From Actinomycetota bacterium (lineage in GTDB: Bacteria; Actinomycetota; UBA4738; CALAEC01): DNA of 64,000 nucleotides. Where the stretch lies: positions 1,756 to 65,755 of the forward strand of contig DASYUI010000035.1 in the NCBI GenBank assembly GCA_036001425.1, read 5' to 3'. This document shows positions 6,085 to 26,659 of the stretch, in pieces. The stretch's first letter is position 1; each line of letters begins with the position of its first letter. The notes under the pieces were generated by a model. It did not search any database, was not told the origin of the DNA, and saw only the letters and a program-made list of their open reading frames with translations. A program made the translations under genes and the position numbers.

Positions 6085-8994
6085 GTGGCGTATCCCCAGC
6101 CACACATCGTTCCGGCGAGGATCCGCGTTCCCGCGACCCGCGGACTCCGGCGTGAGCGCCTACTCGGCGCGCTCGACCGGCTCTGGGATCATCGGTTGGC
6201 CCTGGTCGTGGCGCCGGCCGGATCGGGGAAGACCACCCTCCTGTCGCAGTTCGCGTCGGCACTGGAGGGCCCGGTCGCCTGGTACACCGCCGACGGATCC
6301 CACGCCGAGCCCAGTGTGTTCCTCAGCCATCTGGAGCAGGCGGTATGCACGGCCTTCGGAGACGTCCCCCGAGGGTGGGAGTCGGAGGACGCGGCGGCCC
6401 AGTCGCTCGAAGGCTGGGCGGGCACCAGAGGCCTGGTGGTCCTGGACGACCTTCACGCGCTGGAGGGGACACCTGCGGAGGCGGCCCTCGAGCGACTGAT
6501 CGACTACATCCCACCGAACGTGTTCGTTCTGGCGGCTTCCCGCCGGACTCCGGGGTTCAACCTCTCCAGGCTGCGGGTCTCCGGGGCACTCCTCGAGGTG
6601 GGCTCCGACGACCTCCGGTTCCGATCGTGGGAAGTCGAGCGCCTGTTCCGCGACATCCACGGCGAGCCGCTCACCCCTGAGGATCTCGCCGCTCTGACAC
6701 GAGGAACCGAGGGCTGGGCGGCCGGCCTCCAGCTGTTCCACCTGGCGACTCGCGGGAAACCGGTGCACGAGAGCAGGAAGATCCTGGCCGAGTTGCGCAC
6801 GCGATCTCGCCTGGTCCGCGAGTACCTGGCGAGGAACGTCATCGACGAGCTCCCCGAGGCCCTTCGGGCCTTCCTCCTGGATACGTGTGTGCTGGACCGG
6901 ATGTCGGGTCGCTTGTGCGACGAGCTCCTGGGCGTCTCCGCCAGCGAGCTGGTCCTGGAGGAGCTGGAGCGCCGCCAGATCTTCACGTACGGGCTCGAGG
7001 AGGGGTGGTGGCGGTACCACGAAGTGCTGCGGTCACATCTCCAGGTCCAGCTCGTCCAGACGGTCGGCGAGGCCGAGGCTCGGGAACGATACCGGCGAGC
7101 CGGGGAGCTCCTGGAGACGGCGGGCGCGGTGCGGGAGGCCCTGCAGGCCTTCTGCCGCGCGGAGGACTGGGACGCGGTCGACCGGCTCCTGGGGAAGGAA
7201 GGCGAGCTTCTGGCCGATGGTCCCGACGGGTGGCTGGATCTCGTTCCCTCGGACCTCCGGGAAGACGACCCGTGGGTCCTCCTTGCCGCCGCCCGCAGAG
7301 AGAGAGCCCGGGGCAGGTGGCACCCCGCTCAGGAGGCGTACCAGAAAGCGGAGCGGGCGTTCGGGGGTGCCGGCGCGGCGGAGATCTGCCGCGCAGAGCG
7401 CCAGGCCCTGACCTCCTGGATGGAACCGGCATTCGTCCCCATCGACACTCCGTCGGGGGCCGTCCGAGCCGCGGTCTCGCGCGAGCCGCTCCGGGCGAAG
7501 GGATCGTGGCCCGGCGCTCAGGGGGCCCTTGCCCGAGGGATCTGCTCTCTGCTCGCCGGCCAGGTGCTGGACGCCAGACCCGTTCTTCTTTCGGTCGGCG
7601 ACCACCCGGACGCCAGCCCGAGCCTGGTGGCGGGAGCCCGGCTCGCTGCCGCCCTGGCGGCCATGCTGGCCGGTGACCCTGGTGGCGAACGCGAAACCGA
7701 AGCTGCGGCCGAGGAGGCCGAACACCTGGGTATCCTCTGGCTGGCGCGCCTGAGCCGAGCCTCTCTGGCCCTGTCGGACCGCCCCGACGGAGCGTCCGAA
7801 GCGGCGGCGGCTCGGTTGGCGGGCGAGCGCCGGGGCGACCAGTGGGGAACCTCCCTGGCCGCGCTGCTCGAGGGCATGGGGGCGCTCCGGATCGGCGGGA
7901 GCCCGACCGCCGTCCTGGACGTGGCCGTTCAGGGGTTCCGTCACCTGGGTGCGGGGACGCTGGAGGCCTGGGCCCGATCCGCCCATGCGCTGGCGGTGGC
8001 GCGGACCGGAACACCCGAGGCCCGGCAGACCGCTCTCCAGGCTGAGACCTTCGCCCGGGCCGCCATGGTTCGGGGCGCGCAGATGATCGCCTTCCTGGCC
8101 CTGGCGCAGGCTGATCCCGCTCGGGAAGGTGAGCACCGAGCCGTCGCCATGGAGATCGCCAACGAGTGCGGTCTTGCGTTGCCAGAGCCTCCGAGTGCCA
8201 CCCAGGCTCCGTCGGCCCCGTTCCAGATCTGGTGCTTCGGGAGGTTCTCCCTGACGATCGACGGAAAAGCGGCGGACCTGTCGAGCCTTCGGCCACGGAT
8301 CCGCAGGCTGCTTCGGCTCCTGGCCATGGGCGCCGGAGCCCCGATTCATCGAGAGGTCCTCACCGAGGCCCTGTGGCCGGGGGCCGACCCCGAGACCGGT
8401 GGCCGGAACCTCCACGTCGCGATCTCCACGCTCCGGCGCGTGCTGGAGCCGGACCTGCCCAAGGGTGCCGGCAGCCTCATCCTCCGCGAAGGTGAGACCT
8501 ACCGCTTGGCGCTGCCGGAGGACACCTTCGTCGACGTGCTGGAGCTCGATGACCGCTTGGTCGCCGCCCGGGGTGCCCTGGCCCGGAAGGACGCGGAGAC
8601 AGCACTGACGGAGTTCCGCCGGGCCATGGCCTTCTACGTCGGGGACCTGCTGCCGGAGGAGGGGCCCGCCGAGTGGATCGTGGGAGAACGGGAGCGGAGG
8701 CGCCTCGACGTCTCCGAGCTCGCCGGGGCCCTGGCCGAAGCGTTATTGGTCGCGGGCGAGCCCGGCGAGGCCGCGTGGGTGTGCCGGCGGGGTCTCCAGG
8801 TGGACCGGTACCATGATGCCCTGTGGCGCACGCTCGTCCGCGCCTGCGACCAGGCCGGCGACCCCGTCGCCTCAGCCCGGGCGGGCCGCGACTACCAAGC
8901 GCTTCTCCTGGAGCTCGGGCTCCCGCCGTCCTCGAACAGCCAATCGGAGTCTGACGTGGGCGTCGACCCCGACCGGGCTCTTAACAGCTCTTAG
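6085..8994 (+). CDS. MalT-like STAND ATPase with C-terminal SARP module (OmpR-type wHTH + BTAD)
   Basis: Walker A 'VVAPAGSGKTTLLSQFA', Walker B 'LVVLDDLH', and MalT-like 'TEGWAAGLQLF'. The central part is Ala/Leu-rich and TPR-like. C-terminus has 'FQIWCFGRFSLTIDGKAADL...REVLTEALWP...LHVAISTLRRVLEP' (wHTH) and 'DRYHDALWRTLVRACDQAGDPVASARAGRDYQALLLELGLPP' (BTAD). GTG 6085 is preceded by GGAGGAAAG. The ORF-track start at 6004 is an alternative. Confidence 0.85.
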   Translation: MAYPQPHIVPARIRVPATRGLRRERLLGALDRLWDHRLALVVAPAGSGKTTLLSQFASALEGPVAWYTADGSHAEPSVFLSHLEQAVCTAFGDVPRGWESEDAAAQSLEGWAGTRGLVVLDDLHALEGTPAEAALERLIDYIPPNVFVLAASRRTPGFNLSRLRVSGALLEVGSDDLRFRSWEVERLFRDIHGEPLTPEDLAALTRGTEGWAAGLQLFHLATRGKPVHESRKILAELRTRSRLVREYLARNVIDELPEALRAFLLDTCVLDRMSGRLCDELLGVSASELVLEELERRQIFTYGLEEGWWRYHEVLRSHLQVQLVQTVGEAEARERYRRAGELLETAGAVREALQAFCRAEDWDAVDRLLGKEGELLADGPDGWLDLVPSDLREDDPWVLLAAARRERARGRWHPAQEAYQKAERAFGGAGAAEICRAERQALTSWMEPAFVPIDTPSGAVRAAVSREPLRAKGSWPGAQGALARGICSLLAGQVLDARPVLLSVGDHPDASPSLVAGARLAAALAAMLAGDPGGERETEAAAEEAEHLGILWLARLSRASLALSDRPDGASEAAAARLAGERRGDQWGTSLAALLEGMGALRIGGSPTAVLDVAVQGFRHLGAGTLEAWARSAHALAVARTGTPEARQTALQAETFARAAMVRGAQMIAFLALAQADPAREGEHRAVAMEIANECGLALPEPPSATQAPSAPFQIWCFGRFSLTIDGKAADLSSLRPRIRRLLRLLAMGAGAPIHREVLTEALWPGADPETGGRNLHVAISTLRRVLEPDLPKGAGSLILREGETYRLALPEDTFVDVLELDDRLVAARGALARKDAETALTEFRRAMAFYVGDLLPEEGPAEWIVGERERRRLDVSELAGALAEALLVAGEPGEAAWVCRRGLQVDRYHDALWRTLVRACDQAGDPVASARAGRDYQALLLELGLPPSSNSQSESDVGVDPDRALNSS

Positions 8995-11098
8995 AGCGGA
9001 ACTCGATCTCCGTCAGCGACAGCGCGTTCCCTGCCTGTCCCTCGTAGACGGAATCGATCCGGATATCGATCCTCTTGGTCCCGGCGCCCGAAACCTCCAC
9101 GGGCTGGGGTGCCTTCGTGTCTCCGAGCGTCTCCTTCTCGGTCGCAACGACCCGTCCCCTCGCGTTGATGAACCTCATGGTGATCTCGGCGGGCCGCGGC
9201 TGCTTCGCGAAGCTCTGAGGCGTCTCCTGGTTGCCGGTGGTGAAGATCATCTGGGCGATGTCAACGGGTTCGTTGAAGAGGATCGAGATCCTCTCGCCGG
9301 TTCCGTCACCCGGACCCGATTCCGCCCAGTGGGTGTTGTTCCCATCGTCGATCAAGAGGCTGGCGGGATGTCCTTTCTGCCCCGGGGCCTCTGCGCGGAG
9401 GGCATGGACGGGATTGAAGTCCGGGAAGGCACGAATCTTCACCGCGCAGTACGCACCCTGGACCCCGGAAAGGATCGCCCCTCGCGCGCTCGGGATGACC
9501 ATGCCGCCCGCCAGGCCCAGCAAGGCCAGGACGGCGACGAGCATCCGCAGCTTCCCGAGCATGCCCAGGATCTGCCGGAAGCCGCGCCTCGCGGTCTTGC
9601 CCTTCTGGCCGGCCTTGGCTCGGCCCCGCCGGGTACCGGCCGCCATGGGCTTACGCCCGAAGATCCGCTTATACCAGGGGACCTTCTTGGCGACCTCGGC
9701 CGCCAGCAGCGTGTTCGCGCACCGCCGGCAGAACTTCCGATCGCGGTCGTTGACCTCACCGCACTGGCCGCAGATGAGGTCGCCCGGCTTGGGCTGCCGG
9801 GTCGGCTCCATCTTCACCTGTTGCCTGGCGCGCTTTTCCCTTTGCGCGGCGGGCTTCTGGGCCCCAGGTGTCCGGGCCGCCACGTCCGGGGTGGGAGCCG
9901 TGGGGGGCTTGGCCACGAGCGCCGCCGCCCGATCCGTCCGCTCCTGCTCCTCGGCCTCGGCCAGGAGGCGCCGGGCCTCCTCGTCCTCGCGATGCCGCTG
10001 TGCCTCTTCTTCGGCGCGCTTCCTGGCCTCGGCTTCGGCGCGCTTCCTGGCCTCGGCTTCCTTGCGGGCCTTGGCCACGGCCTCCGCACTGGCCACCATG
10101 GATGCCGCCTGGGAGCGCCGCCGCTCCTCCTCGGAAGCCGCCTGGGTGCGCCGCTGCTCCTCCTCGGAGGCCGCCTGGGAGCGCCGCTGCTCCTCCTCGC
10201 GGGCCTTGCGCTCGGCCTCCTCACGCTGCTTGGCCTCGAACTCCTGGCGGGCCTTGGCCTCCGCTTCTTGCCGCTGCTTGGCCGCCTCCTCCTCACGGAC
10301 CTTGCTCTCGGCCTCCTCACGGGCGTTACGCTCCGCCTCCTCACGAGACCTGCGCTCCGCCTCATCACGCTGGCGGCGGGCCTCCTCCTCGGTGAGCCTG
10401 CGCTCCGCCTGCTCGCGCTCCCTGGCCTCGGCCTCCTCACGGGACTTGCGGTCGGCCTCCTCACGGGACTTGCGGTCGGCCTCCTCCCGGGCCTTGCGCT
10501 CGGCCTCCTCGCGCTCCCGAGTGACCTCGGGGGTCTCGACCTCCGGAACGACCACGGCCAGCTCGGGCTCCGCGGTCTTCACCGACGTGTCCTCAGCGGA
10601 CGCGGCCGGGGCCTCCCCCGTGGACGCCGCGGCCGGCATGGGCCGGGTCACGTCCCGCCGGGGAGGCTCGATCCGTGGCGACCCCGCCGGTTGCGACGGG
10701 CTCACTGTGGGTGCTGTGCCGGAAGCACCCTGCCGTTCCGCGGCCGTGTCCGGTGGCCCGGTTCCTGTCGGGGCAGCCGGTTCGGCATCAACCACAGGGG
10801 TCTCAGGAGCACCCTCGCCGGCGCCGCTCTCCGCGGCGGGCTGCTCAGTGGGCGGAGCCTGCGGAGTCGTTCCGGTCTGTCCGTCGGGCTGGTCTTCGTC
10901 GCCGATCCCCAGGGTGGACTTCACGCGATCCATGAACCCCGCCTTTTCGGGCTCGGGTTCGGGCTGGGATTCGGGCTCGGGTCCGGGCTCCTGCTCCTCG
11001 GTCAGCCTCTCTCCGGCCCACTCGAGAAACGTTCCGCACGAGCCGCAGAACGCGTCGTCGTCCTCGTTCTGGTAGCCGCAGTTCTTACAGATGATCAT
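8981..11098 (-). CDS. zinc-ribbon / charged coiled-coil / zinc-ribbon / TM / discoidin-like (galactose-binding-like) membrane protein; last gene of the CIS operon
   Basis: N-terminal 'CKNCGYQNEDDDAFCGSCG'. About 200 aa of E/R/K/A repeats ('EAERKAREEADRKSREEA'). Second ribbon 'CGQCGEVNDRDRKFCRRC', a basic stretch, then TM 'LRMLVAVLALLGLAGGMVIP'. C-terminal 'LLIDDGNNTHWAE...ISILFNEPVDIAQMIFTTGN...IDIRIDSVYEG...LSLTEIEF' looks like F5/8-type-C. Its ATG overlaps the stop of the gpI-like gene (ATGA at 11095-11098). Confidence 0.85.
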   Translation of the reverse strand: MIICKNCGYQNEDDDAFCGSCGTFLEWAGERLTEEQEPGPEPESQPEPEPEKAGFMDRVKSTLGIGDEDQPDGQTGTTPQAPPTEQPAAESGAGEGAPETPVVDAEPAAPTGTGPPDTAAERQGASGTAPTVSPSQPAGSPRIEPPRRDVTRPMPAAASTGEAPAASAEDTSVKTAEPELAVVVPEVETPEVTREREEAERKAREEADRKSREEADRKSREEAEAREREQAERRLTEEEARRQRDEAERRSREEAERNAREEAESKVREEEAAKQRQEAEAKARQEFEAKQREEAERKAREEEQRRSQAASEEEQRRTQAASEEERRRSQAASMVASAEAVAKARKEAEARKRAEAEARKRAEEEAQRHREDEEARRLLAEAEEQERTDRAAALVAKPPTAPTPDVAARTPGAQKPAAQREKRARQQVKMEPTRQPKPGDLICGQCGEVNDRDRKFCRRCANTLLAAEVAKKVPWYKRIFGRKPMAAGTRRGRAKAGQKGKTARRGFRQILGMLGKLRMLVAVLALLGLAGGMVIPSARGAILSGVQGAYCAVKIRAFPDFNPVHALRAEAPGQKGHPASLLIDDGNNTHWAESGPGDGTGERISILFNEPVDIAQMIFTTGNQETPQSFAKQPRPAEITMRFINARGRVVATEKETLGDTKAPQPVEVSGAGTKRIDIRIDSVYEGQAGNALSLTEIEFRSKSC

Positions 11099-11871
11099 TC
11101 AGCGGGCACCTCACCTTCTCCGTTCGGAGTTTCCTGATCCAAGTTCCCCGGGGCGACGGTCTCGGTCTTCGGGCTCTCGCCTGCCTCGGGCTCTGGCTCG
11201 GGCTTGGCGGGGGGAAGCTCGACGCCCGTCGGGGTCTCCCCCGTCTCTGGCTCGGGCTTCGCGGGGGCAACCTGGCCGGCCTTCGGCGCCTCCGGTTCCC
11301 CACCCTTCGGCCCTGGCTTTGCAGGTTCGCGCCCCGGACCGACCAGCTCGATCTGATGCAGCACGTGGGCCGGCTTCGCCGCTCGGATGATGGCGTCGAG
11401 CCGGTCGACATCCACTGCCGAGCGATCGGGCACCCTGAGCCGGATCGTGAACCTCGGCTCGGGCTCACCCGGTACCCTTCCGTTCGGGGTGGGCGACCAC
11501 TCCACCCCGCCGGTGTCGACGATCTCCGGCTCCACCCCCGCGTACAGGGCAACCAGGGCGGAGACTCCCTTCACCGTCCCTCGCCACCGGTACAGCTCCA
11601 CGGCCTCGGCCACGAAGGTTCGCTGCCGCTCGAGGGGCCAGTTCTCGTCGAGCACCACGCCCACCCACCCGGCGAGCCACTCGAGGAAGTCTGTCGGGGT
11701 CAGCTTCGGATCCAGGTACGCGACCAGATTGTCCAGCGTCGATGGAAGGGGAGCCAGTACCGAGTCGAGTGCGGACGTGAACCGCTGGGTGAAATCGTCC
11801 TCCTGGTAGACGGCCGGGAGCGCCACCCCGATCGGGTGAGGGTTCGGAAGTTCCTCGATGATCCCTCGCAC
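11095..11871 (-). CDS. short phage-tail-protein-I-like baseplate protein (Afp12 N-domain-like) with P/E-rich tail
   Basis: 'LPAVYQEDDFTQRFTSALDSVLAPL...FLEWLAGWVGVVLDENWPLERQRTFVAEAVELYRWRGTVKG' is P2 gpI-like. The tail is 'AKPEPETGE...PAKPEPEPEAGE'. GTG 11871 has AAGGAG 9 nt upstream. GTG 11940 and TTG 11973 are alternative starts. Confidence 0.8.
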   Translation of the reverse strand: MRGIIEELPNPHPIGVALPAVYQEDDFTQRFTSALDSVLAPLPSTLDNLVAYLDPKLTPTDFLEWLAGWVGVVLDENWPLERQRTFVAEAVELYRWRGTVKGVSALVALYAGVEPEIVDTGGVEWSPTPNGRVPGEPEPRFTIRLRVPDRSAVDVDRLDAIIRAAKPAHVLHQIELVGPGREPAKPGPKGGEPEAPKAGQVAPAKPEPETGETPTGVELPPAKPEPEPEAGESPKTETVAPGNLDQETPNGEGEVPAE

Positions 11872-19547: not shown

Positions 19548-19706
19548 TCACCCCTCTTCCGCGAGGCGCCGGTTGATCCGGCCGATTTCCTCCACGAAAC
19601 GCTGGCGCAGGGAATGCTCGAGGTCGAGGATCTCGTCCAGCGACCAGTGGAAATGGTAGGCCACGTACGCAACCTCCTCATAGAGACGGTCGGTTGCGTA
19701 CGTCAT
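19548..19706 (-). CDS. 52-aa conserved-looking small protein (resembles the eCIS-associated family I recall as DUF6760)
   Basis: Below the ORF-track cutoff. Translates to MTYATDRLYEEVAYVAYHFHWSLDEILDLEHSLRQRFVEEIGRINRRLAEEG. Its ATG overlaps the upstream stop (ATGA), and it is in the -1 frame relative to the upstream gene. Confidence 0.65.
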   Translation of the reverse strand: MTYATDRLYEEVAYVAYHFHWSLDEILDLEHSLRQRFVEEIGRINRRLAEEG

Positions 19707-20125
19707 GATCCCCCCGGTGCACCACCGGCCACATCGACCGTGAACTCATGCTCGCAGGAGGGGCACGTCACGGTGGCCCGTGTGTGCCCCTCCTGGTTGA
19801 TCCGTCGATACAGGTCCTGCAGGAACGCCAGGTCGGAGGCGAACAGACCTTCGATCGTGGCCGGCGTCACCTCCCGGAGGTCGCCGAGCTGCGTGACCAC
19901 CCGGGACAGAAGGAGCACCGTGAGGTACGCCTCGTTGTCGCGAACCCTCGGGTCCCGGAGCGGGAGAATCTCGTCCCGTGCCGTGGCCAAGCGGATGACA
20001 CCCCGCTTGTGCGTGGTCCCCGAGTCGTCCGTGTACCCGATGGGTAGCTCGAACTCGAACTCCGTCCGTACGGCCTCGCCACGCGATTCCCGGCCGGCCA
20101 CCTCCGCTGGGCTCGGCGCTCTCAT
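19703..20125 (-). CDS. tail-assembly-chaperone-like protein (gpE/gpG position) with C-terminal CxxC
   Basis: 'FEFELPIGYTDDSGTTHKRGVIRLATARDEILPLRDPRVRDNEAYLTVLLLSRVVTQLG...TVTCPSCEHEF'. Sits directly after the tube gene and before the tape-measure-like gene. Its ATG overlaps the tube stop (ATGA at 20122-20125). Confidence 0.7.
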   Translation of the reverse strand: MRAPSPAEVAGRESRGEAVRTEFEFELPIGYTDDSGTTHKRGVIRLATARDEILPLRDPRVRDNEAYLTVLLLSRVVTQLGDLREVTPATIEGLFASDLAFLQDLYRRINQEGHTRATVTCPSCEHEFTVDVAGGAPGGS

Positions 20126-20571
20126 GCGGGAGCGAGTCCTTCGTGGACGATGGTGCACTCCTCGACGAGGATGTCGTTCCCCGAAGCCGAGAGCGCACCG
20201 ATGCTCACCTTTGACGGCCAGCCGTTCACGAAGTTGAACCGGCCCACCTCGCCTCTGGCGTAGTCGTACAGGACCACCGAGCCGTTCCTGCGGGCGGTCT
20301 CGATGTTCCCGTCCTGGACCTCCTTGATCCAGTCCCAGAGGGCCTTGTCGTTCGTCTTCCCGTGCTTGAGCGTGATGGGCCCGAACTTCTTCGCCCCGGG
20401 GAGCTGCTTCATCAGGGCGAGACCGCCCAACTTGTTCTCCCGGTGCTCGATCACCTGGATCTCGGCCGAGAGACCGCTCACTTCCTTGAACTGGGCCATC
20501 GAGACGCCGTCGATCTCGATCTGGAAGGTATAACCAGCGACTGCGTCTCCTCCGGCGATATCAATTCCCAC
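20122..20571 (-). CDS. tail tube protein (Afp1-like, T4 gp19 family)
   Basis: 'YTFQIEIDGVSMAQFKEVSGLSAEIQVIEHRENKLGG...KQLPGAKKFGPITLKHGKTNDKALWDWIKEV'. Confidence 0.9.
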   Translation of the reverse strand: MGIDIAGGDAVAGYTFQIEIDGVSMAQFKEVSGLSAEIQVIEHRENKLGGLALMKQLPGAKKFGPITLKHGKTNDKALWDWIKEVQDGNIETARRNGSVVLYDYARGEVGRFNFVNGWPSKVSIGALSASGNDILVEECTIVHEGLAPA

Positions 20572-20617: not shown

Positions 20618-22153
20618 CTACTCCGACACCTCCGCGCCGCCCGAGAACTGGGCGAGACGGAACACCACGAACTCGGCCGGCTTGACCGGCGCGATGCCGA
20701 TCTCCACCGTGACCTGTCCGGCGTCCACCATGTCCGGGGGGTTGGTCTCCTCGTCGCACTTGACGAAGAAGGCCGCCTCCGGGGTGGCCCCGAACAGGGC
20801 CCCATCCCGCCACAGCCGGAGCAGGAAGGAGGTGATCGTCCGGCGGAGCCGGGCCCAGAGGTCCATGTCGTTCGGCTCGAACACGACCCACTGGGTGCCG
20901 AGCAGGATCGACTCCTCGATGTAGTTGAAGAGCCGACGGACGTTGATGTACCGCCATGCGGAATCGCTGGACAGGGTCCTCGCGCCCCACACCCTGATTC
21001 CCCGGCCGGGGAAGGCCCGGATGACGTTGACCCCGATGGGGTTCAGGAGGTCGTGCTCGGCCTTGGTGATATTGGTCTCGAGGGTGATCGCTCCCCTGAT
21101 GACCTCGTTCGCGGGAGCCTTGTGCACGCCCCGGGTGTCGTCGTTTCGGCCCCAGATACCGGCCAGGTGGCCGCTCGGTGGCACGAACGTGTTCTGTCCG
21201 CTGGCCGGGTCGAACACCTTGATCCACGGCCAGTACAGAACGGCGAACTTGGAGTCGTAGCCGGCCTTGTCGACCCGCCACTCGCGGATCTGCTGAGCGG
21301 TCAGGCCGGGCGGCGCGTCCAGGACCGCCATCCGGTCACCCATGTTCTCGCAGTGCGCGATCATGGCTAGCTGGACCGCCTGGAGCCCCTCGAGGTCGAT
21401 CATGCCCTTCTGGTAGGCGGCCATGAGGTCCGGGCAGGACACCATGGTCACCTCGTCGATGGCCTCTAGACCTCCGAGGCCCGTCCGGTCCGCGGCGTCG
21501 CCGACGTAGTCCTCGGGAGCGATCCGAGTGGGCGCAGGGGCCCCGCCGCCAGCCAGGCTGACCTTGCTGCCGGTGGCCGGCCGACGCTCCAGCGTGGAAG
21601 CCGAGCCCACCTCTTGGAGCTGGATGAGCTTCGACTCCGCGTTGACCACCGTGACGGCGTTCTGCTTTCCCTTCTTCGTCGTCAGGTTGTCGAAGGACTC
21701 CTCGACCTTGGTTCCCCGCTTCACGACGAGCTTGAAGGTCTCTTCCTTCTCACCTTCCGAGGCGTCCTGCACCTCGACGGTGAGGTCGTTGCCGGCGGTG
21801 CCCTCCTCCAGCGCGAGCACGCGGTAGGCCGACAGGTCTTCCTTGGCCCCGCTGGGCAGCTCGCCCCGGGCGGTGGGTGGGCCGGCGCCGTCCTGTCCTA
21901 CGCGGACCACGTACGCCGCGCCGCCGCCATTGTTGAAGTAGCCGTACACCGCGTGGGCCAGGTACGAGCCCTCGATGAAGTCACCGAAGGTCTGCGAGAA
22001 CTGGCTCCAGTTGGTGACCAGGGTCGGGGTGTTCACGGGTCCCTGCGCCGCCATCCCCGCGAACGCGGCGACGGCGGTCCCCACACCCTCGATCGGTCGA
22101 GACCCGGCCTCTACTTCCTCTACGTAGACGCCGGGCGACAAGTACTGAGGCAT
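20618..22153 (-). CDS. contractile tail sheath protein (Afp2-4-like)
   Basis: 'MPQYLSPGVYVEEVEAGSRPIEGVGTAVAAFAGMA' is the canonical sheath N-terminus. C-terminal 'GVNVIRAFPGRGIRVWGARTL'. RBS GGAGAGGAGG. Confidence 0.95.
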   Translation of the reverse strand: MPQYLSPGVYVEEVEAGSRPIEGVGTAVAAFAGMAAQGPVNTPTLVTNWSQFSQTFGDFIEGSYLAHAVYGYFNNGGGAAYVVRVGQDGAGPPTARGELPSGAKEDLSAYRVLALEEGTAGNDLTVEVQDASEGEKEETFKLVVKRGTKVEESFDNLTTKKGKQNAVTVVNAESKLIQLQEVGSASTLERRPATGSKVSLAGGGAPAPTRIAPEDYVGDAADRTGLGGLEAIDEVTMVSCPDLMAAYQKGMIDLEGLQAVQLAMIAHCENMGDRMAVLDAPPGLTAQQIREWRVDKAGYDSKFAVLYWPWIKVFDPASGQNTFVPPSGHLAGIWGRNDDTRGVHKAPANEVIRGAITLETNITKAEHDLLNPIGVNVIRAFPGRGIRVWGARTLSSDSAWRYINVRRLFNYIEESILLGTQWVVFEPNDMDLWARLRRTITSFLLRLWRDGALFGATPEAAFFVKCDEETNPPDMVDAGQVTVEIGIAPVKPAEFVVFRLAQFSGGAEVSE

Positions 22154-22248
22154 AGCGGTCCTCCTCTCCGGAAACCGTCCGTGCGCAGAGTCTCGCGTTG
22201 GAGGACCTGCTACTAGGTCCTACCGGGCGCGCCTACGGGTAGGAGTGG

Positions 22249-22329
22249 TTGCCCGAAGGAGTGGGCGGCCGCGTTCCCGAAGGGGAGACGGAATTGCCCG
22301 ATGAGCGGGTCGGGTTGCCCGAATGGGCA
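22249..22329. promoter_or_regulatory. array of TTGCCCGA-type direct repeats ending in the palindrome TGCCCGAATGGGCA, upstream of the sheath gene
   Basis: Plus-strand copies: TTGCCCGAAGG (22249), TTCCCGAAGG (22274), TTGCCCGATG (22294), TTGCCCGAATG (22315). Spacing is 25/20/21 bp. TGCCC-GAAT-GGGCA lies at 22316-22329. Confidence 0.5.
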
Positions 22330-22369: not shown

Positions 22370-23068
22370 TTACGTGGCGGCGGGTGCTTCCTCTTCTTCT
22401 TCTTCTTCGGTGGCCTCTTGGGTGGCGACTTCCTCTTCTTCCTCTTCCGCCTCGCGGCCCACCGGAGCAGTCTGGAGCTCTTCTTCCTCTTCCGCCTCGC
22501 GGCCCACCGACGCTCCCGCATCGCTCCGTGCGGTGACCCTGTCCGCTACCGCGCTCGCTTGCTGCTCGGAGGCGTCGCCGGGGTCGGAGACTTCGAGCTT
22601 CTGCGCAGGCGGGGCGTTCCGCTGCTGGACCACGTGGGTCAGCTCGTGCGCCAGGAGCTTGTCCCCGTCGCCGCTTCCCGGCTGGTACTCGCCGGAACGG
22701 AAGAAGATGTCCTGCCCCGTGGTGAAGGCCTTGGCCTTGACCGACCGTGACAGCGAGTCCGCCTCCGTGTCGTTGTGAACGCGCACGCCGGAGAAGTCCT
22801 CGCCCATGGTTCGCTCCATCTTCTGGCGAGACCCCTCATCCAGGGTCGAGCCCCCTCCTCGCTTGGACTGGATGGCCCGGGCGATGGTGTCGTCGACGTC
22901 CGCTCCCTTCGCCCCCTTCATCTGCACACGTAGCTTCGGAACCAGTCGCTGCATGGCCTGGTTTCCAAGACGGCCCTCGCCGCCGGTCGGGTCCTTCGAA
23001 CGCGCCGCCTCACCCTCGGCGGGCTTCCGCGAGGACTTCCGGACCTCGTCGATGTCGAACGAATCCAT
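22370..23068 (-). CDS. DUF4157 (eCIS core domain) zincin-like protein with intact HExxH and poly-Glu tail
   Basis: 'STLDEGSRQKMERTMGEDFSGVRVHNDTEADSLSRSVKAKAFTTGQDIFFRSGEY...LLAHELTHVVQQ'. The C-terminus carries 'VGREAEEEEE' twice and an EEEEEEE run. Confidence 0.85.
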   Translation of the reverse strand: MDSFDIDEVRKSSRKPAEGEAARSKDPTGGEGRLGNQAMQRLVPKLRVQMKGAKGADVDDTIARAIQSKRGGGSTLDEGSRQKMERTMGEDFSGVRVHNDTEADSLSRSVKAKAFTTGQDIFFRSGEYQPGSGDGDKLLAHELTHVVQQRNAPPAQKLEVSDPGDASEQQASAVADRVTARSDAGASVGREAEEEEELQTAPVGREAEEEEEEVATQEATEEEEEEEAPAAT

Positions 23069-23086: not shown

Positions 23087-25177
23087 CTACAGGCGCGGCG
23101 GGCCATCCAACGCCTCGCTTGTCGACACCAGGTGGAAATATGGTCCGAACTCCGCCTCCACGCACAACCGCCCGAGCTTGCGGTACTCGCGCTGGACCCC
23201 TCGGATGAGGTCCTCCACCGAAACGGATCTCTCCGCGTCCGCCGCCAGGTACGCAGCCGTGACGCAGATGTTCCGGATGTTCCCACCGGAGAATTCGAAG
23301 GACTTGGCCAGGAAATCGAGGTCCAGGTCTCCCTCCCTGGGGACCTCCGGGCTCAGGCACTTCTCCCACAGCGAACGGCGATGTCTCTCATCGGGCATGG
23401 GGAAGTCCACGATGACGTCGAGCCTTCGGGTGAACGCCTCGTCGAGGTTGGCCCTCAGGTTGGTGGCCAGGATGGCCATCCCCTCGAAGGTCTCCATCCG
23501 CTGCAGCAGGTATGCCACCTCGATGTTGGCGTAGCGGTCGTGGGCGTCCTTGACCTCGGACCTCTTTCCGAACAACGCGTCCGCCTCGTCGAAGAAGAGG
23601 ACGCCGTTGACACCCTCCGCCTCGGAGAAGATGCGTTCGAGGTTCTTCTCGGTCTCTCCGATGTACTTGTCCACCACGGTGGCCAGGTCGATCGTGTAGA
23701 GGTCCAGCCCGAGCTCGCCGGATAGCACCTCCGCGGCCATGGTCTTCCCGGTCCCGGACTCACCCGCGAACAGGGCCGTGATCCCCCCGCCCCGGCCGCC
23801 CCCCTTCCGCATCCCCCACTCCCCGAGGACGCGCTCCCGGTACCGCGCCCGGGCGGACAACTCGTGGAGGTGAGCGAGGGTATCGGCCGGGAGGACGATG
23901 TCTTGCCACCCAACCGCCGGCTCGATCCGGCGGGCCAGCCTCTCCAACCCAGCGGCGTTCTGGGCCCGGGCCCCCGCCCTGAGGTCGGTCGGGTCAATGG
24001 ATCGGCCGGCGTAGGAGGCTCGCAGGCGAGCGGCCGTGGCCGCCCTGGCCACCTGTTCGGGGCCGAGGCGGAAGGGGGTCATGACCGCCGCCGCGTCCAG
24101 CTCCTTCGGGGTGTCGCCGTCGAGGTGGGCCCGCCACATGCCGGCTCGCTCCTCCGGCCCGGGGAGGCCGACGTCGACGACCAGCGGGATCTCCCGTGAC
24201 CACATGGGGTCCCAGTTCCGTGTCCCGGTGATCACCACGGGCCAGGGGATCTCGGCGAATGCCCGCACGCCGAGCGCTCCGCGCTCCACGACCTGTTCGA
24301 CCGGCCCCACCACCAGACCAGCCCCTCGCAGGCCCGCCTCGCGCCCCGCCGCTGCGGCGATGGCGGTGGGGTCGTCGTCAACGGTCAGTCGAGCCAGGTC
24401 GAGGGCCAGCGTGGGGATCCCCATCCCGGCGAAGGCGGCCGCGGCAAGCCCTCGTCCCGCGCCCGCCAGCCGCTCCCGCAGGTAGCAGAGCCGCGCGCCC
24501 TCGGCGATGGCGCGAGCCAGGGCCTCCCCGTCTTGCTCGTCCCAGCTGATCGGAGAGGCCAGGAGTGTGGTGAGCGCGTGGTCGGGGCGGTCGTCGCCCA
24601 AGAGATGAGCCGCGACCCGGTCCGGGACCCGCAGGGTCCGCGTGAGGAACGGCCGATCGGGGTCCTCCACCAGGATGAGCCCCGCCTCGACCAGAGGGCT
24701 TCCCCCCTGTAGCCTTCGCCGGGCGCGGGCGTCGGCCGGTGAGGCTCCGCACAGTTCCAGAGACAGGCCCACGCTGGCCCGCCGGCGGGTCACGTCGTCG
24801 TGCAGATACCCGTAGAGGCGTTCGAACCGCGCGTCGAGGTCCGGCGCCAGCGAAACGAGGAGAAGCTCGGCATCGAGGGGCTCGAGATCGAAGGTCTTTG
24901 CCAGGCGCCGGAGCCGGATGTCCTCTCCCTCGGCCTCAGCGGTGTCGGCGGCCTTCTCCACGCGCGACAGGTCCTCGGCTGCCGCGGGATCGGGCGGGGG
25001 CGGTGGGGCCGGGGCATCCAGGAGCTGGTCGACCTGCTCTTCCGTGAGGTAGAGACCACGGAAGGGGTCGTCGGGTTCCGGGTCTCCGGCCCGGCGGCGG
25101 TTGACTGCCGCCTTCACGCGAGCCTCCACGACGGCCAAGCGACCCAGGAGGTGCTCGAGCGATGGAGACGGCTTCAT
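23087..25177 (-). CDS. AAA+ ATPase (Afp15-like)
   Basis: Walker A 'FAGESGTGKTMAAEVL', Walker B 'VLFFDEADALFGKR', and 'ILATNLRANLDEAFTRRLD'. ATG 25177 overlaps the DUF4255 stop (ATGA). The ORF-track extension to 25624 is Arg/Pro-rich, a frame artefact. Confidence 0.9.
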   Translation of the reverse strand: MKPSPSLEHLLGRLAVVEARVKAAVNRRRAGDPEPDDPFRGLYLTEEQVDQLLDAPAPPPPPDPAAAEDLSRVEKAADTAEAEGEDIRLRRLAKTFDLEPLDAELLLVSLAPDLDARFERLYGYLHDDVTRRRASVGLSLELCGASPADARARRRLQGGSPLVEAGLILVEDPDRPFLTRTLRVPDRVAAHLLGDDRPDHALTTLLASPISWDEQDGEALARAIAEGARLCYLRERLAGAGRGLAAAAFAGMGIPTLALDLARLTVDDDPTAIAAAAGREAGLRGAGLVVGPVEQVVERGALGVRAFAEIPWPVVITGTRNWDPMWSREIPLVVDVGLPGPEERAGMWRAHLDGDTPKELDAAAVMTPFRLGPEQVARAATAARLRASYAGRSIDPTDLRAGARAQNAAGLERLARRIEPAVGWQDIVLPADTLAHLHELSARARYRERVLGEWGMRKGGGRGGGITALFAGESGTGKTMAAEVLSGELGLDLYTIDLATVVDKYIGETEKNLERIFSEAEGVNGVLFFDEADALFGKRSEVKDAHDRYANIEVAYLLQRMETFEGMAILATNLRANLDEAFTRRLDVIVDFPMPDERHRRSLWEKCLSPEVPREGDLDLDFLAKSFEFSGGNIRNICVTAAYLAADAERSVSVEDLIRGVQREYRKLGRLCVEAEFGPYFHLVSTSEALDGPPRL

Positions 25178-25890: not shown

Positions 25891-25961
25891 GCGTCCCGAT
25901 GCTCCTCTCCGGCGCTGAGGGAAGCCACCCGCCCCGGTACATTCCTTGGTGCAGTTCCGCC

Positions 25962-25975: not shown

Positions 25976-25980
25976 TCGGT

Positions 25981-26009: not shown

Positions 26010-26032
26010 GACGGGTCCGCGCCGATCCGAGC

Positions 26033-26659
26033 CTAGATCAGTCCCTGCCGAAGTGCGAAGGCGACCGCGTGGGACCGGTTGCGCAGATGGAACCGGGTGG
26101 TGATGTCGTGGATGATGTTCTTGATCGTCCGCTCCGAGTACGCGAGCTGCTGGGCGATCTCCGCGGTGTCCATTCCTTCGGCCACGAGCTTCAGCACGCC
26201 GAGCTCCCGCTCGGTCAGGCCCGAGAAGGTAAGACCCCGAGGAGCCAGCACATGACGCTGGAGCCTGCCCACCTGAGACAGCAAGCGTCCCAAGAGGTCA
26301 GGTGGAACGGTGCCATCGCCCTGGGCGGCCGCGACCACTGCCCTGGTCAGGATCTCAGGCGTGGCTTCCGAGCGCCGAAGGAGCCCACAGGCGCCCGCCT
26401 CGACCGCCGCCACCAGGCCACCGTCGTCGGGCCGGGCCACGACCAGGACCACCCGAGGACCGCCGCTGCGCTGGATGGCCTTGATGACCCGAAGGGTCTC
26501 ATCGTCGACCTCGTCCGCGGCGACGACCGCGACATCGGCCTGGTCGACCTCGGTCTCGCTCAGGACTTCGAGCTCAGGGCGTCCGCGAAGCTCGGCCGCG
26601 ATCCCCGCCTGTGAGATCGGGTCTCGCGCATAGACGAACACGGGTACGCGCTCCGTCAT
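26033..26659 (-). CDS. LuxR/NarL-family regulator with degenerate (pseudo-)receiver domain
   Basis: C-terminal HTH 'LTERELGVLKLVAEGMDTAEIAQQLAYSERTIKNIIHDITTRFHL'. The N-terminal REC-like fold starts 'VFVYARDPIS', where NarL has 'LLIDDHP'. Confidence 0.85.
   Translation of the reverse strand: MTERVPVFVYARDPISQAGIAAELRGRPELEVLSETEVDQADVAVVAADEVDDETLRVIKAIQRSGGPRVVLVVARPDDGGLVAAVEAGACGLLRRSEATPEILTRAVVAAAQGDGTVPPDLLGRLLSQVGRLQRHVLAPRGLTFSGLTERELGVLKLVAEGMDTAEIAQQLAYSERTIKNIIHDITTRFHLRNRSHAVAFALRQGLI

What the first reader, a model, noticed from the sequence alone, without database searches (positions are those of the whole stretch)
8981..26659. Complete contractile injection system operon with a reduced, fibre-less, PAAR-less gene set ending in a membrane protein
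Fifteen co-directional genes run from 25890 to 8981.

- **Gene order:** cap (DUF4255), AAA+ ATPase, DUF4157 protein, sheath, tube, chaperone-like gene, 52-aa ORF, tape-measure-like protein, tube 2, LysM, VgrG, gp25, baseplate J, gpI-like, zinc-ribbon/TM/discoidin-like protein.
- **Coupling:** junctions are 0-46 nt or overlapping. ATGA overlaps occur at 25174-25177, 20122-20125, 19703-19706 and 11095-11098, and TGATG at 16994-16998. The exception is a 216-nt gap before the sheath gene.
- **What is missing:** measured against the established Afp/PVC inventory, I see no tail fibre (Afp13), no PAAR (Afp10), only a short Afp12-like protein, and no obvious toxin downstream of the cap.
- **Interpretation:** the operon ends in a membrane-anchored protein instead. 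This fits a cell-associated or cytoplasmic CIS, as reported for Streptomyces, better than a released eCIS. The terminal gene and the flanking genes differ from what I recall of those loci.
Basis: partly seen in the sequence, partly recalled or inferred. Interest (0 to 1): 0.85.

Follow-up and report, generated by a model that had tools for sequence, protein, structure and literature searches.

The report
Streptomyces-type cytoplasmic injection system with CisA
This is a complete phage-tail-like contractile injection system of the kind already characterised in Streptomyces (class IId), including its known membrane partner CisA, found in an uncultured actinobacterium; it is a new member of a known kind, not a new kind.

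Summary
Fifteen co-directional, tightly coupled genes (25890 to 8981, minus strand) encode a full contractile injection system.

Sheath, cap, both tube proteins, Cis7, VgrG, Cis11 and Cis12 each match the solved S. coelicolor CIS structure best (sheath E=4e-205, Cis11 E=4e-242). Gene order equals that of annotated Streptomyces class IId loci.

The novelty claim fails.
- **Terminal gene:** the zinc-ribbon/TM/discoidin protein is a homologue of CisA (Sco4242): same slot, same ATGA coupling to cis12, same architecture, BLASTP E=9e-21. CisA is already described and shown to be needed for firing.
- **Missing parts:** lack of fibre, PAAR and typical tape measure is published for S. coelicolor.
- **Effector:** a probable Sco4256-type effector lies just upstream, divergently transcribed (26814-28097).

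Modest new points:
- CisA-family genes sit behind CIS baseplate genes in Acidimicrobiia, Chloroflexota and Dormibacterota genomes.
- This CisA carries a length-polymorphic charged helix of about 200 residues.
- A convergent STAND-SARP regulator is widely conserved.
- Four direct repeats precede the sheath gene.

The parts
26033..26659 (-). LuxR/GerE-family regulator, first co-directional gene, 142 nt upstream of the cap gene
   Evidence: Pfam GerE E=3e-13. It is 44-46% identical to the LuxR-type regulators that head Streptomyces class IId clusters L173 and L174. GerE is a published eCIS-associated regulator domain (PMC8213781).
25174..25890 (-). cis16 cap / tail terminator
   Evidence: Pvc16_N E=3e-45. 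Best solved relative is 9gts_0A, the S. coelicolor Cis16, E=4e-60.
23087..25177 (-). cis15 AAA+ ATPase
   Evidence: WHD + AAA + AAA_lid_3. It is 52-54% identical to the ATPases of the Streptomyces loci. ATGA overlap with the cap gene.
22370..23068 (-). Small DUF4157 (eCIS_core) protein with an HELTH motif, just upstream of the sheath gene; Sle2-like position
   Evidence: eCIS_core E=7e-33; sequence. Sle2-type DUF4157 proteins are reported just upstream of sheath genes (PMC13277306).
22248..22327 (-). Four direct repeats C(A/T)TCGGG(C/A)AA(C/T), spaced 21, 21 and 24 nt, inside the 216-nt gap before the sheath gene; candidate regulator binding sites (inferred)
   Evidence: Four of the 12 relaxed-motif matches in the whole window fall within these 80 nt.
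20618..22153 (-). cis2 sheath
   Evidence: Phage_sheath_1 and Phage_sheath_1C. 8bky_A and 8bl4_V (Streptomyces CIS sheaths) match at E=4e-205 and 5e-202 over the full length; the next solved relative is at E=2e-114 and Pvc2 at 9e-52.
20122..20571 (-). cis1a inner tube
   Evidence: Phage_T4_gp19 E=2e-36.
19703..20125 (-). Conserved 140-aa protein, tail-assembly-chaperone-like
   Evidence: phrog_508 tail assembly chaperone E=4e-6. It is 59-66% identical to the gene in the same slot of the Streptomyces and Kitasatospora loci.
19548..19706 (-). DUF6760 52-aa protein
   Evidence: DUF6760 E=4e-15. The same slot holds a DUF6760 gene in L172 and L173.
17490..19541 (-). 683-aa Pro/Ala/Glu-rich protein with an internal DUF4157 domain, in the tape-measure slot; possible cargo or adaptor
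   Evidence: eCIS_core E=3e-18 at residues 471-545. Seven [VI]QR[AV] motifs and an HDLVH motif. A 1243-aa DUF4157 protein occupies the same slot in Kitasatospora.
16996..17469 (-). cis1b second tube protein / tube initiator
   Evidence: Phage_T4_gp19 E=5e-33. Best solved relative 9gtp_a, E=3e-29.
16169..16996 (-). cis7 tube-baseplate adaptor
   Evidence: CIS_tube E=2e-19. Best solved relative 9gtp_P, E=3e-26.
14376..16160 (-). cis8 VgrG-like spike
   Evidence: Phage_base_V E=2e-26. Best solved relative 9gtr_q, E=1e-60.
13910..14359 (-). cis9 gp25-like wedge protein
   Evidence: GPW_gp25 E=2e-26. It is 52-64% identical to the gene in the actinomycete class IId loci (60-64% in the two Streptomyces plasmid loci and L110, 52% in Kitasatospora L172).
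11957..13906 (-). cis11 baseplate J
   Evidence: Baseplate_J and TIGR02243 E=2e-161. 9gtp_1K matches at E=4e-242 over residues 1-648.
11095..11871 (-). cis12 short gpI-like wedge protein with a PE-rich C-terminal tail
   Evidence: Tail_P2_I E=2e-16. 9gtp_E (Cis12, 190 aa) matches at E=6e-45. Start at 11871 from P0053 and the ribosome-binding site.
8981..11098 (-). cisA homologue. Order of parts: Zn ribbon 1 (aa 1-31), disordered stretch, ER/K helix (aa ~190-395), Zn ribbon 2 (aa ~441-468), TM helix, discoidin/CBM32-like domain (aa ~560-705)
   Evidence: Pfam. NCBIfam NADase_discoid at 79.5 bits against a cut-off of 38. BLASTP to Streptomyces-type CisA: E=9e-21, plus the N-terminal ribbon at E=4e-5. 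AlphaFold models. Foldseek hits to CBM32, F5/8-type-C and APC10 folds.
6004..8994 (+). Convergent STAND (AAA_16) + OmpR-type DNA-binding domain + BTAD (SARP-like) regulator; its 3' end overlaps the cisA stop by 14 nt
   Evidence: Pfam. A homologue lies convergent within 6 kb downstream of the cisA homologue in 41 of 63 loci with enough downstream DNA.
26814..28097 (+). Probable Sco4256-type effector: two PapD/ASH-like Ig domains, one TM helix, a C-terminal domain
   Evidence: Pfam Cep192_D3, HYDIN and VesB-like Ig; sequence. It is 32-40% identical (E=1e-20 to 2e-42) to the 'hydrolytic protein' or 'hydrolase' genes inside the Streptomyces and Kitasatospora class IId clusters. A homologue is present in 25 of 80 CisA-bearing genome loci.

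Best explanation
The region is a class IId contractile injection system of the Streptomyces cytoplasmic type (CIS-Sc / SLP), carried on the chromosome of an uncultured Actinomycetota bacterium.

The operon encodes a LuxR regulator, cap (Cis16), AAA+ ATPase (Cis15), a small DUF4157 adaptor, sheath (Cis2), tube (Cis1a), a chaperone-like protein, DUF6760, a DUF4157-bearing protein in the tape-measure slot, tube initiator (Cis1b), Cis7, VgrG (Cis8), gp25 (Cis9), baseplate J (Cis11), short Cis12, and finally a CisA homologue.

Shown here: gene identities, order and coupling, and the homology of each part to the characterised S. coelicolor system, CisA included.

Inferred by homology:
- Particles assemble free in the cytoplasm.
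- The bitopic CisA has its N-terminus with two zinc ribbons in the cytoplasm and its discoidin domain outside.
- On stress, CisA brings the baseplate (probably Cis11) to the membrane and licenses firing.
- TM-bearing effectors of the Sco4256 type are then released and the producing cell dies.

Expression is probably controlled by the LuxR regulator and by the convergent STAND-SARP regulator. The four direct repeats before the sheath gene are candidate operators for the latter; this step is speculative.
For: - **Families:** Pfam, NCBIfam and PHROG assignments for all genes.
- **Solved relatives:** the best solved relative of sheath, cap, Cis1b, Cis7, VgrG, Cis11 and Cis12 is in every case an S. 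coelicolor or S. venezuelae CIS chain.
- **Synteny:** gene order is the same as in annotated Streptomyces sp. NBC_01324, S. clavuligerus and Kitasatospora loci, with 55-64% identity for sheath and Cis11.
- **CisA position:** in Streptomyces-type metagenome loci the gene after cis12 is CisA-like. L092, whose Cis11 is 99% identical to S. coelicolor's, has a gene after cis12 starting MTTQNCAECG...FCDACG. In L110 a 472-aa gene sits after cis12 and overlaps its end by 4 nt (8554-8557), as in the window.
- **CisA homology:** BLASTP of the window protein against L110 CisA gives 27% identity over 326 aa, E=9e-21, colinear through Zn ribbon 2, the PWYKR/PWWRR motif, the TM helix and the C-terminal domain. 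The N-terminal ribbon matches at E=4e-5. Both carry the same Pfam domains.
- **C-terminal fold:** discoidin/CBM32.
- **Published work:** CisA and Sco4242 features and function are in PMC10020575, PMC10066040 and PMC12237407.
- **Linkage:** in 55 of 56 genome loci with at least 3.5 kb of upstream DNA, the CisA homologue lies downstream of CIS baseplate genes. In 48 of them it lies directly after cis12.
- **Host:** the host assignment rests on IolD best named hits, Actinomycetota MAGs at 74-89% identity.
Against: - Identity to Streptomyces CisA is low (about 26-27%), so functional equivalence is inferred, not shown.
- The host is uncultured. Nothing here shows whether particles are cytoplasmic, membrane-attached or released.
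- Class IId placement rests on best hits and synteny, not on a formal sheath/Cis11 phylogeny.
- The link between the Ig-TM protein and Sco4256 is indirect. It rests on architecture plus homology to unnamed 'hydrolytic protein' genes inside Streptomyces clusters; I had no Sco4256 sequence.
- Vladimirov et al. detected Sco4242 in purified particles and read it as a fibre. The role of this family is therefore not fully settled.
Confidence: 0.85

Rival explanations
1. It is a released extracellular CIS. The terminal protein acts as a fibre or receptor-binding protein attached to the baseplate, and its discoidin domain binds glycans on a target cell.
For: - The gene sits in the fibre slot, directly after the wedge genes.
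- The C-terminal domain has a CBM32/F5-8-type-C glycan-binding fold.
- Sco4242 was detected by mass spectrometry in purified S. coelicolor particles and was proposed as a fibre (PMC10020575).
Against: - A strongly predicted TM helix separates the zinc-ribbon part from the lectin domain.
- CisA was shown to be a bitopic membrane protein, absent from the cryo-EM particle, and S. coelicolor CIS are cytoplasmic (PMC12237407, PMC10066040).
- No holin/endolysin release cassette is seen in the operon.
Confidence: 0.08
2. It is a stably membrane-anchored system, comparable to thylakoid-anchored tCIS or a minimal T6SS-like device. CisA, with its roughly 30-nm helix, acts as a permanent tether rather than a transient firing adaptor.
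For: - The long, confidently predicted ER/K helix between the two zinc ribbons could be a rigid tether.
- The family is almost always linked to CIS baseplate genes.
Against: - In the closest characterised system the particles float free and CisA is not part of purified particles (PMC12237407).
- No TssJLM-like or ClpV-like genes were found in the window.
- Linker length varies from about 140 to 590 aa across the family, and most linkers are disordered rather than helical.
Confidence: 0.06
3. It is a defective prophage tail or an R-type tailocin cluster, not a dedicated injection system.
For: All structural genes are homologous to contractile phage tail genes.
Against: - eCIS-specific markers are present: the Pvc16_N cap, the Afp15-like AAA+ ATPase and two DUF4157 proteins.
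- No capsid, terminase, integrase or lysis genes were found among the window ORFs scanned.
- The best relatives are CIS, not phages.
- The same module is conserved in over 50 genomes of several phyla, with a dedicated membrane protein and regulator.
Confidence: 0.01

Closest known systems
Streptomyces coelicolor CIS-Sc (sco4242-sco4260; class IId cytoplasmic CIS) and the S. lividans SLP
   Same: - The same structural set is present: Cis1a, Cis1b, Cis2, Cis7, Cis8, Cis9, Cis11, short Cis12, Cis15 and Cis16.
- Gene order is the same.
- A LuxR-type regulator heads the cluster.
- There is no Afp13 fibre, no typical Afp14 tape measure and no PAAR (as in S. coelicolor).
- A DUF4157 gene lies just before the sheath gene.
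- cisA lies directly after cis12 with a 4-nt overlap.
- A probable Sco4256-type Ig-TM effector lies nearby.
   Different: - The host is an uncultured, non-Streptomyces Actinomycetota lineage.
- The cluster is more compact: 15 genes plus LuxR in one direction, against 19 ORFs with divergent units.
- The effector-like gene lies outside the operon, upstream and divergent, and is coupled to a secreted M23 peptidase.
- No Sle1-type alpha-helical cargo gene is seen.
- CisA is 705 aa against 468 aa, with an ER/K helix of about 200 residues.
- Cis12 has a PE-rich tail.
- A STAND-SARP regulator lies convergent to cisA.
CisA / Sco4242 protein family
   Same: - It occupies the same position after the wedge genes.
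- It has an N-terminal zinc ribbon.
- A Cys-rich zinc ribbon sits just before a single TM helix.
- The C-terminal sugar-binding (discoidin) domain of about 150 aa ends in a conserved ...E(I/V)EF motif.
- Sequence homology is significant (E=9e-21).
   Different: - Identity is only about 26-27%.
- The cytoplasmic linker is a repetitive charged helix that varies in length between strains, not an unstructured region.
- The nearest relatives come from Acidimicrobiia, Chloroflexota and Dormibacterota MAGs, not from Streptomyces.
Roseiflexus / Chloroflexota-Deinococcota CIS clade (class IId, PMC12998442)
   Same: It belongs to the same class IId lineage, with intracellular particles and a proposed cytoplasmic mode of action.
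   Different: That clade is reported to lack close cisA homologues. This locus and its relatives, including many MAGs labelled Chloroflexia or Dormibacterota, have one.
Afp / PVC / AlgoCIS extracellular CIS
   Same: The core tail-like machinery, the Pvc16_N cap, the AAA+ ATPase and the DUF4157 association are shared.
   Different: - There is no tail fibre, no PAAR, no long Afp12 and no toxin genes at the 3' end.
- Sheath similarity is far lower (E about 1e-44 to 1e-52, against 1e-205 for CIS-Sc).
- The operon ends in a membrane protein.

Membership tests
Class IId CIS (Streptomyces cytoplasmic CIS type) | Sheath and baseplate J are closest to Streptomyces Cis2 and Cis11 | tested here: met
   Sheath against 8bky_A gives E=4e-205 over the full length; the next non-Streptomyces relative is at 2e-114. 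Cis11 against 9gtp_1K gives E=4e-242. Identity to Streptomyces and Kitasatospora loci is 55-64%.
Class IId CIS (Streptomyces cytoplasmic CIS type) | Formal placement inside the IId clade in a sheath/Afp11 phylogeny | not tested
   Only best-hit and synteny evidence is available; no tree was built with dbeCIS reference sets.
Class IId CIS (Streptomyces cytoplasmic CIS type) | Gene order: cap, ATPase, ..., sheath, tube, chaperone-like, DUF6760, large variable gene, tube 2, Cis7, VgrG, gp25, Cis11, short Cis12 | tested here: met
   The order is identical in annotated loci L173 (Streptomyces sp. NBC_01324) and L174 (S. clavuligerus). From the sheath gene onward it is also identical in L172 (Kitasatospora).
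Class IId CIS (Streptomyces cytoplasmic CIS type) | No conventional tail fibre (Afp13) and no typical tape measure (Afp14) | tested here: met
   No fibre or tape-measure family was hit in Pfam, NCBIfam or PHROGs by any operon protein. All junctions are too short to hide a gene. The published feature is in PMC10066040.
Class IId CIS (Streptomyces cytoplasmic CIS type) | Particles are cytoplasmic and mediate stress-induced death of the producer | not testable with these tools
   This needs cryo-ET and genetics in the host or in a surrogate.
CisA / Sco4242 | Encoded immediately downstream of cis11 and cis12 | tested here: met
   Window: 4-nt ATGA overlap with cis12. Streptomyces-type locus L110: the same 4-nt overlap.
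CisA / Sco4242 | Single TM helix preceded by a Cys-rich Zn-binding domain | tested here: met
   A CxxC...CxxC ribbon at aa 443-460 (DUF7577 / zinc-ribbon hits), followed by a predicted TM helix. The ribbon cysteines are invariant in the family alignment.
CisA / Sco4242 | Conserved sugar-binding C-terminal domain of about 150 aa | tested here: met
   NADase_transloc E=2e-13. NADase_discoid at 79.5 bits, above its cut-off. 7ji1_A at E=7e-14. Foldseek hits to CBM32 and F5/8-type-C folds at probability 1.00. The same Pfam families hit Streptomyces-type CisA.
CisA / Sco4242 | Detectable sequence homology to Streptomyces CisA | tested here: met
   BLASTP E=9e-21, 27% identity over 326 aa, colinear, plus the N-terminal ribbon at E=4e-5. 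The comparison used a metagenomic Streptomyces-type CisA (its Cis11 is 85% identical to S. coelicolor's), not SCO4242 itself.
CisA / Sco4242 | N-in/C-out bitopic topology and requirement for sheath contraction | not testable with these tools
   Experimental properties reported in PMC12237407.
Afp/PVC-type extracellular CIS | Tail fibre (Afp13), PAAR (Afp10), long Afp12, and toxin genes at the 3' end | tested here: not met
   None was found. Cis12 is 258 aa and matches only positions 476-572 of the 715-position CIS12_fam model, far below its cut-off.
Sco4256-4258 effector family | Conserved N-terminal (pilus-chaperone-like) domain, single TM helix, variable C-terminal domain, encoded in or next to the CIS cluster | tested here: inconclusive
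   The architecture fits. The N-terminal 200 aa are homologous (E=1e-20 to 2e-42) to genes inside Streptomyces and Kitasatospora IId clusters. No Sco4256 sequence was available for a direct comparison.
Type VI secretion system | TssJLM membrane complex and ClpV recycling ATPase | tested here: not met
   No such families were found among the operon or flanking ORFs scanned.

The most novel reading that the evidence does not exclude
Two readings go beyond what I found published.

1. The cytoplasmic part of this CisA is not a floppy linker. It is a single charged alpha-helix of about 200 residues (roughly 30 nm) between two zinc ribbons. Its length changes by repeat gain and loss between near-identical strains. 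It could work as a rigid spacer or force-transmitting rod that sets how the baseplate is presented to the membrane before firing.

2. The whole module may be switched by the conserved convergent STAND-NTPase/SARP regulator acting on the four direct repeats before the sheath gene. That would make it a sensor-controlled cell-death device spread across Actinomycetota, Chloroflexota and Dormibacterota, well beyond filamentous actinomycetes.
Probability: 0.2. Interest if true: 0.5.

Novelty: new member of a known kind. Interest (0 to 1): 0.25.

Why it matters
For the question asked, it matters little. The 'reduced, fibre-less, PAAR-less operon ending in a membrane protein' is the published anatomy of the Streptomyces class IId cytoplasmic CIS with CisA.

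The comparative by-products are of moderate use to the field:
- **Wider distribution.** CisA-family genes are linked to CIS baseplate genes in 55 of 56 informative genome loci, spanning Acidimicrobiia, Pseudonocardiaceae, Chloroflexota-labelled and Dormibacterota MAGs. The papers I read report a narrower distribution, in Streptomyces and other actinomycetes.
- **Two zinc ribbons.** The family near-universally has two zinc ribbons separated by a hypervariable spacer.
- **Conserved regulator.** A STAND-SARP regulator is a conserved neighbour.

These points give testable handles on how cytoplasmic CIS are recruited to the membrane and switched on.

Tried and rejected
- **First homologue search missed close relatives.** A search with the terminal protein's C-terminal 277 aa returned only hits of 40% identity or less and no Streptomyces. 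This briefly suggested an orphan family. The word-index search had missed the close relatives, which I later found through Cis12. Streptomyces CisA had to be reached another way.
- **Viral contig scan.** Scanning viral contigs with S. coelicolor Cis11 gave only relatives at 28-30% identity and no Streptomyces locus. The metagenome scan then worked.
- **Cis12 search.** It listed only the 120 best hits, none from Streptomyces, so it could not be used to fetch SCO4243 or SCO4242.
- **PAAR.** tblastn with a PAAR protein from related locus L001 found nothing in the window.
- **RNA and signals.** Rfam at gathering threshold found only a tRNA-Val. Promoter and terminator consensus scans over the operon were at chance level.
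- **Pre-sheath repeats elsewhere.** I looked for comparable direct-repeat arrays before the sheath genes of three actinomycete plasmid loci. No comparable four-copy array was seen: nothing in two loci and only two-copy repeats, some 21-25 nt apart, in L174. Conservation in the close relatives could not be tested because their fetched loci begin inside the sheath gene.
- **Flank synteny for taxonomy.** Only the unnamed JGI contigs L084 and L085 share the flanking enoyl-CoA hydratase gene.
- **Prophage, tailocin and T6SS readings.** Rejected for lack of their defining genes.

Full report
**1. Observation**

The window has about 68-70% G+C. The minus strand between 25890 and 8981 carries fifteen ORFs with strong third-position GC bias. 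Most have GGAGG-type ribosome-binding sites.

- Pvc16_N cap
- WHD+AAA ATPase
- eCIS_core (DUF4157) protein
- sheath
- gp19 tube
- an unassigned 140-aa protein, which PHROGs calls a tail assembly chaperone
- DUF6760 (52 aa)
- a 683-aa protein with an internal eCIS_core domain
- a second gp19 tube
- a CIS_tube protein
- VgrG
- gp25
- Baseplate_J
- Tail_P2_I
- a 705-aa protein with an N-terminal zinc ribbon, a second zinc ribbon, a TM segment and a NADase_transloc / F5-8-type-C domain

All four ATGA overlaps, the TGATG junction and the 216-nt gap before the sheath gene are exactly where stated.

Small corrections:
- cis12 most likely starts at GTG 11871. This gives 258 aa, identical to database protein P0053, with an AGGAG upstream.
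- The 'LysM' gene gives a CIS_tube hit, not a LysM hit.
- A LuxR/GerE regulator (26033-26659) is a sixteenth co-directional gene inside the stated coordinates.

No PAAR or fibre domain is detected in any operon protein. A PAAR protein from a related locus finds nothing in the window.

**2. What it is**

Each structural protein has the Streptomyces CIS structures as its best solved relative, by a very large margin.

| Protein | Best solved relative | E-value |
|---|---|---|
| Sheath | 8bky / 8bl4 | 4e-205 / 5e-202 (Pvc2: 9e-52) |
| Cis11 | 9gtp_1K | 4e-242, full length |
| Cis12 | 9gtp_E | 6e-45 |
| Cap | 9gts_0A | 4e-60 |
| Cis1b | 9gtp_a | 3e-29 |
| Cis7 | 9gtp_P | 3e-26 |
| VgrG | 9gtr_q | 1e-60 |

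A tblastn of the sheath against plasmid records found class IId clusters on Streptomyces and Kitasatospora linear plasmids at 59-64% identity. Their annotated gene order is the same as in the window, down to the DUF6760 gene, the large variable gene in the tape-measure slot and a LuxR-type regulator at the head.

IolD from the same window has Actinomycetota MAG proteins as its best named relatives, at 74-89% identity. The flanks hold ordinary chromosomal genes: inositol catabolism, an ABC transporter, thioredoxin and Crp. The host is therefore an uncultured actinobacterium, and the locus is chromosomal.

**3. The terminal gene is cisA**

A first homologue search with its C-terminal 277 residues gave only metagenomic proteins of 40% identity or less. 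They share the same zinc-ribbon/TM/discoidin architecture. Three long contigs showed these genes sitting at or near the end of CIS operons.

A scan of 185,579 species genomes found 300 relatives. The best 80 loci come from these groups:
- Acidimicrobiia
- MAGs labelled Chloroflexia, Chloroflexi, Limnocylindrales or Dormibacterota
- Pseudonocardiaceae (Amycolatopsis anabasis, Solihabitans fulvus, Actinokineospora, Actinophytocola)

Of 56 loci with enough upstream DNA, 48 have cis12 directly upstream. Seven more have the baseplate genes within 4.6-7.5 kb upstream.

To reach Streptomyces, I rebuilt S. coelicolor Cis11 from the PDB alignment and scanned metagenome contigs.
- In L092, whose Cis11 is 99% identical to S. 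coelicolor's, the gene after cis12 begins MTTQNCAECGTPAEPGQSFCDACGAVLSW. This is a zinc ribbon.
- In L110, whose Cis11 is 85% identical, the full 472-aa gene follows cis12 with a 4-nt overlap and ends ...SIAEIEFFGPS.

BLASTP of the window protein against L110 CisA gives E=9e-21: 27% identity over 326 aa, colinear through the second zinc ribbon, the PWYKR/PWWRR motif, the TM helix and the C-terminal domain. The N-terminal ribbon matches at E=4e-5. Pfam finds Zn_Ribbon_1 plus NADase_transloc / F5_F8_type_C in the Streptomyces-type proteins too.

An AlphaFold model of residues 429-705 (pLDDT 80) gives a zinc ribbon, a TM helix and a beta-sandwich. The sandwich matches CBM32, F5/8-type-C and APC10 folds at probability 1.00.

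The literature already describes this protein.
- Sco4242 has a strongly predicted TM motif, a Cys-rich probable Zn-binding domain just before it and a carbohydrate-related C-terminal domain of about 150 residues. It is encoded in the fibre slot (PMC10020575; 'sugar-binding domain' in PMC10066040).
- As CisA, it is a bitopic membrane protein required for contraction and for CIS-mediated cell death (PMC12237407).

**4. What is 'missing' is the published norm**

Casu et al. state that both Streptomyces clusters lack a conventional fibre (Afp13), a typical tape measure (Afp14) and ClpV. They also state that PAAR (Cis10) is present only in S. venezuelae (PMC10066040). Solved S. coelicolor Cis12 is only 190 aa.

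Among the relatives collected here, PAAR genes between VgrG and gp25 occur in a subset (for example L001, L011 and L173). They are absent from the rest, including the Streptomyces-type metagenome loci.

**5. Effector and regulators**

A 427-aa protein is transcribed divergently from the LuxR gene (26814-28097). It has two PapD/ASH-like Ig domains, one TM helix and a C-terminal domain. This is the architecture published for Sco4256-4258: a conserved N-terminus resembling pilus chaperones, one TM helix and a variable C-terminus (PMC10020575, PMC10066040).

Its N-terminal 200 residues match genes annotated 'hydrolytic protein' or 'hydrolase' inside the Streptomyces and Kitasatospora clusters (E=1e-20 to 2e-42). 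A homologue is present in 25 of 80 CisA-bearing loci. I therefore read it as a probable effector. I could not compare it with Sco4256 itself.

It is translationally coupled to a secreted M23 peptidase (28100-29731).

Two DUF4157 proteins are present:
- The small one sits just upstream of the sheath gene, as reported for Sle2 (PMC13277306).
- The 683-aa one sits in the tape-measure slot.

A 996-aa STAND (AAA_16) plus OmpR-type DNA-binding domain plus BTAD regulator converges on cisA. A homologue is convergent within 6 kb in 41 of 63 loci. GerE and BTAD domains are already listed as eCIS-associated (PMC8213781).

**6. Points that are modestly new**

(a) The CisA family almost always has two zinc ribbons: 66 of the 79 complete members examined had both the recognised N-terminal ribbon and a second one upstream of the TM helix. 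The linker between them ranges from about 140 to 590 residues.

(b) In this locus the linker contains an ER/K-rich tract (aa 179-392).
- It is encoded by 33-bp and 24/48/96-bp tandem repeats.
- It is predicted as two long helices, 190-333 and 338-395, at pLDDT about 95.
- Its length differs between near-identical contigs: 705 against 716 aa, and 651 against 691 aa.
- Similar charged linkers recur in three other lineages.

(c) The 216-nt gap before the sheath gene holds four direct repeats C(A/T)TCGGG(C/A)AA(C/T), spaced 21, 21 and 24 nt. Four of the 12 relaxed-motif matches in the 64-kb window fall here. Spacing of about two helical turns is what I would expect for OmpR/SARP-type direct-repeat operators (my own knowledge, not checked here). 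I could not test conservation, so this remains a lead.

**7. Verdict**

The functional guess of a Streptomyces-like cytoplasmic CIS is supported by homology and synteny. The novelty argument (an unusual terminal gene, an unusual reduction, no toxin) is not supported. This is a new member of the known class IId CIS with CisA.

Mechanistic statements about localisation, firing and cell death are inferred from the S. coelicolor work and are untested for this organism.

Noticed in passing
window 9923-10564 (cisA codons 179-392): A repetitive ER/K-rich tract lies inside cisA. Tandem Repeats Finder shows 33 bp x3 at 10100-10199 and 24/48/96-bp periodicity at 10190-10515. AlphaFold predicts about 200 residues of continuous helix at pLDDT about 95. 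Length differs between near-identical metagenome contigs by whole repeats (705 vs 716 aa; 651 vs 691 aa).
   Followed up: partly
window 22248-22327 (216-nt gap before the sheath gene): Four direct repeats C(A/T)TCGGG(C/A)AA(C/T) are spaced 21, 21 and 24 nt. The gap also folds more stably than shuffles (z = -2.9). They are candidate operators for the OmpR/SARP-type or LuxR regulator. Conservation in relatives could not be checked.
   Followed up: partly
window 6004-8994 (+): A 996-aa regulator has an N-terminal STAND ATPase (AAA_16) and a C-terminal OmpR-type DNA-binding domain plus BTAD. As far as I recall, this is the reverse of the usual AfsR/SARP domain order. It converges on cisA and overlaps its stop by 14 nt. 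A homologue is convergent in 41 of 63 related loci from several phyla. In L001 it is split into two genes.
   Followed up: partly
window 26814-29731 (+): An Ig-Ig-TM-CTD protein, a probable Sco4256-type effector, is translationally coupled (2-nt gap) to a secreted M23 peptidase with a Pro/Thr-rich linker. The M23 gene gave no tblastn match (E<=1e-5) in the 83 loci then in hand, although a Peptidase_M23 gene is annotated at the end of L001.
   Followed up: partly
window 29736-31907 (-): A 723-aa PD40 beta-propeller protein lies here. Homologues recur near the CisA gene in 13 of 80 genome loci. Its C-terminus also matches the 1065-aa hypothetical protein between LuxR and the cap gene in Streptomyces sp. 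NBC_01324 (L173). It may be a further accessory component.
   Followed up: no
window 32379-38678 (+): A 2099-aa protein is made almost entirely of RTX calcium-binding nonapeptide repeats (37 matched stretches), about 6 kb from the CIS operon. It is not found next to related loci.
   Followed up: no
L001 6465-6854; also L011, L012, L014, L019, L040, L044, L046, L066, L070, L075, L079, L173: A PAAR gene sits between VgrG and gp25 in a subset of CisA-bearing CIS loci. It is absent from the window, its close relatives and the Streptomyces-type metagenome loci. PAAR presence is therefore patchy within this lineage.
   Followed up: partly
window 17490-19541 (-): The 683-aa protein in the tape-measure slot is mostly Pro/Ala/Glu-rich. 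It has seven [VI]QR[AV] motifs, a DUF4157 domain with a degenerate HDLVH motif and a short charged C-terminal helix. The small DUF4157 protein (22370-23068) keeps a canonical HELTH motif and ends in a poly-Glu tail.
   Followed up: no
window 11095-11871 (-): Cis12 carries a PE/PK-rich disordered C-terminal tail of about 75 aa. This tail is absent from the 190-aa S. coelicolor Cis12 and from most relatives, which are 179 aa. It is shared only with the closest metagenomic relatives (247-296 aa).
   Followed up: no
window 19548-20125 (-): A tail-assembly-chaperone-like gene is followed by the 52-aa DUF6760 gene with an ATGA overlap. The arrangement recalls the phage G/GT chaperone pair upstream of a tape measure, and it is conserved in all class IId loci examined.
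   Followed up: no
L021, L051, L078 (short contigs): A few CisA-family hits sit in bins labelled Stellaceae, Acidobacteriota or Verrucomicrobiia, on contigs of 4.7, 49.4 and 7.0 kb respectively. These may be binning errors rather than true hosts.
   Followed up: no
window 3838-3910 (-) and 45510-55192: A tRNA-Val (TAC) is present, along with an inositol catabolism and ABC sugar-transport cluster (IolB, IolD, IolE-like, IolG-like). This is ordinary chromosomal context with no sign of a mobile element around the CIS locus.
   Followed up: no
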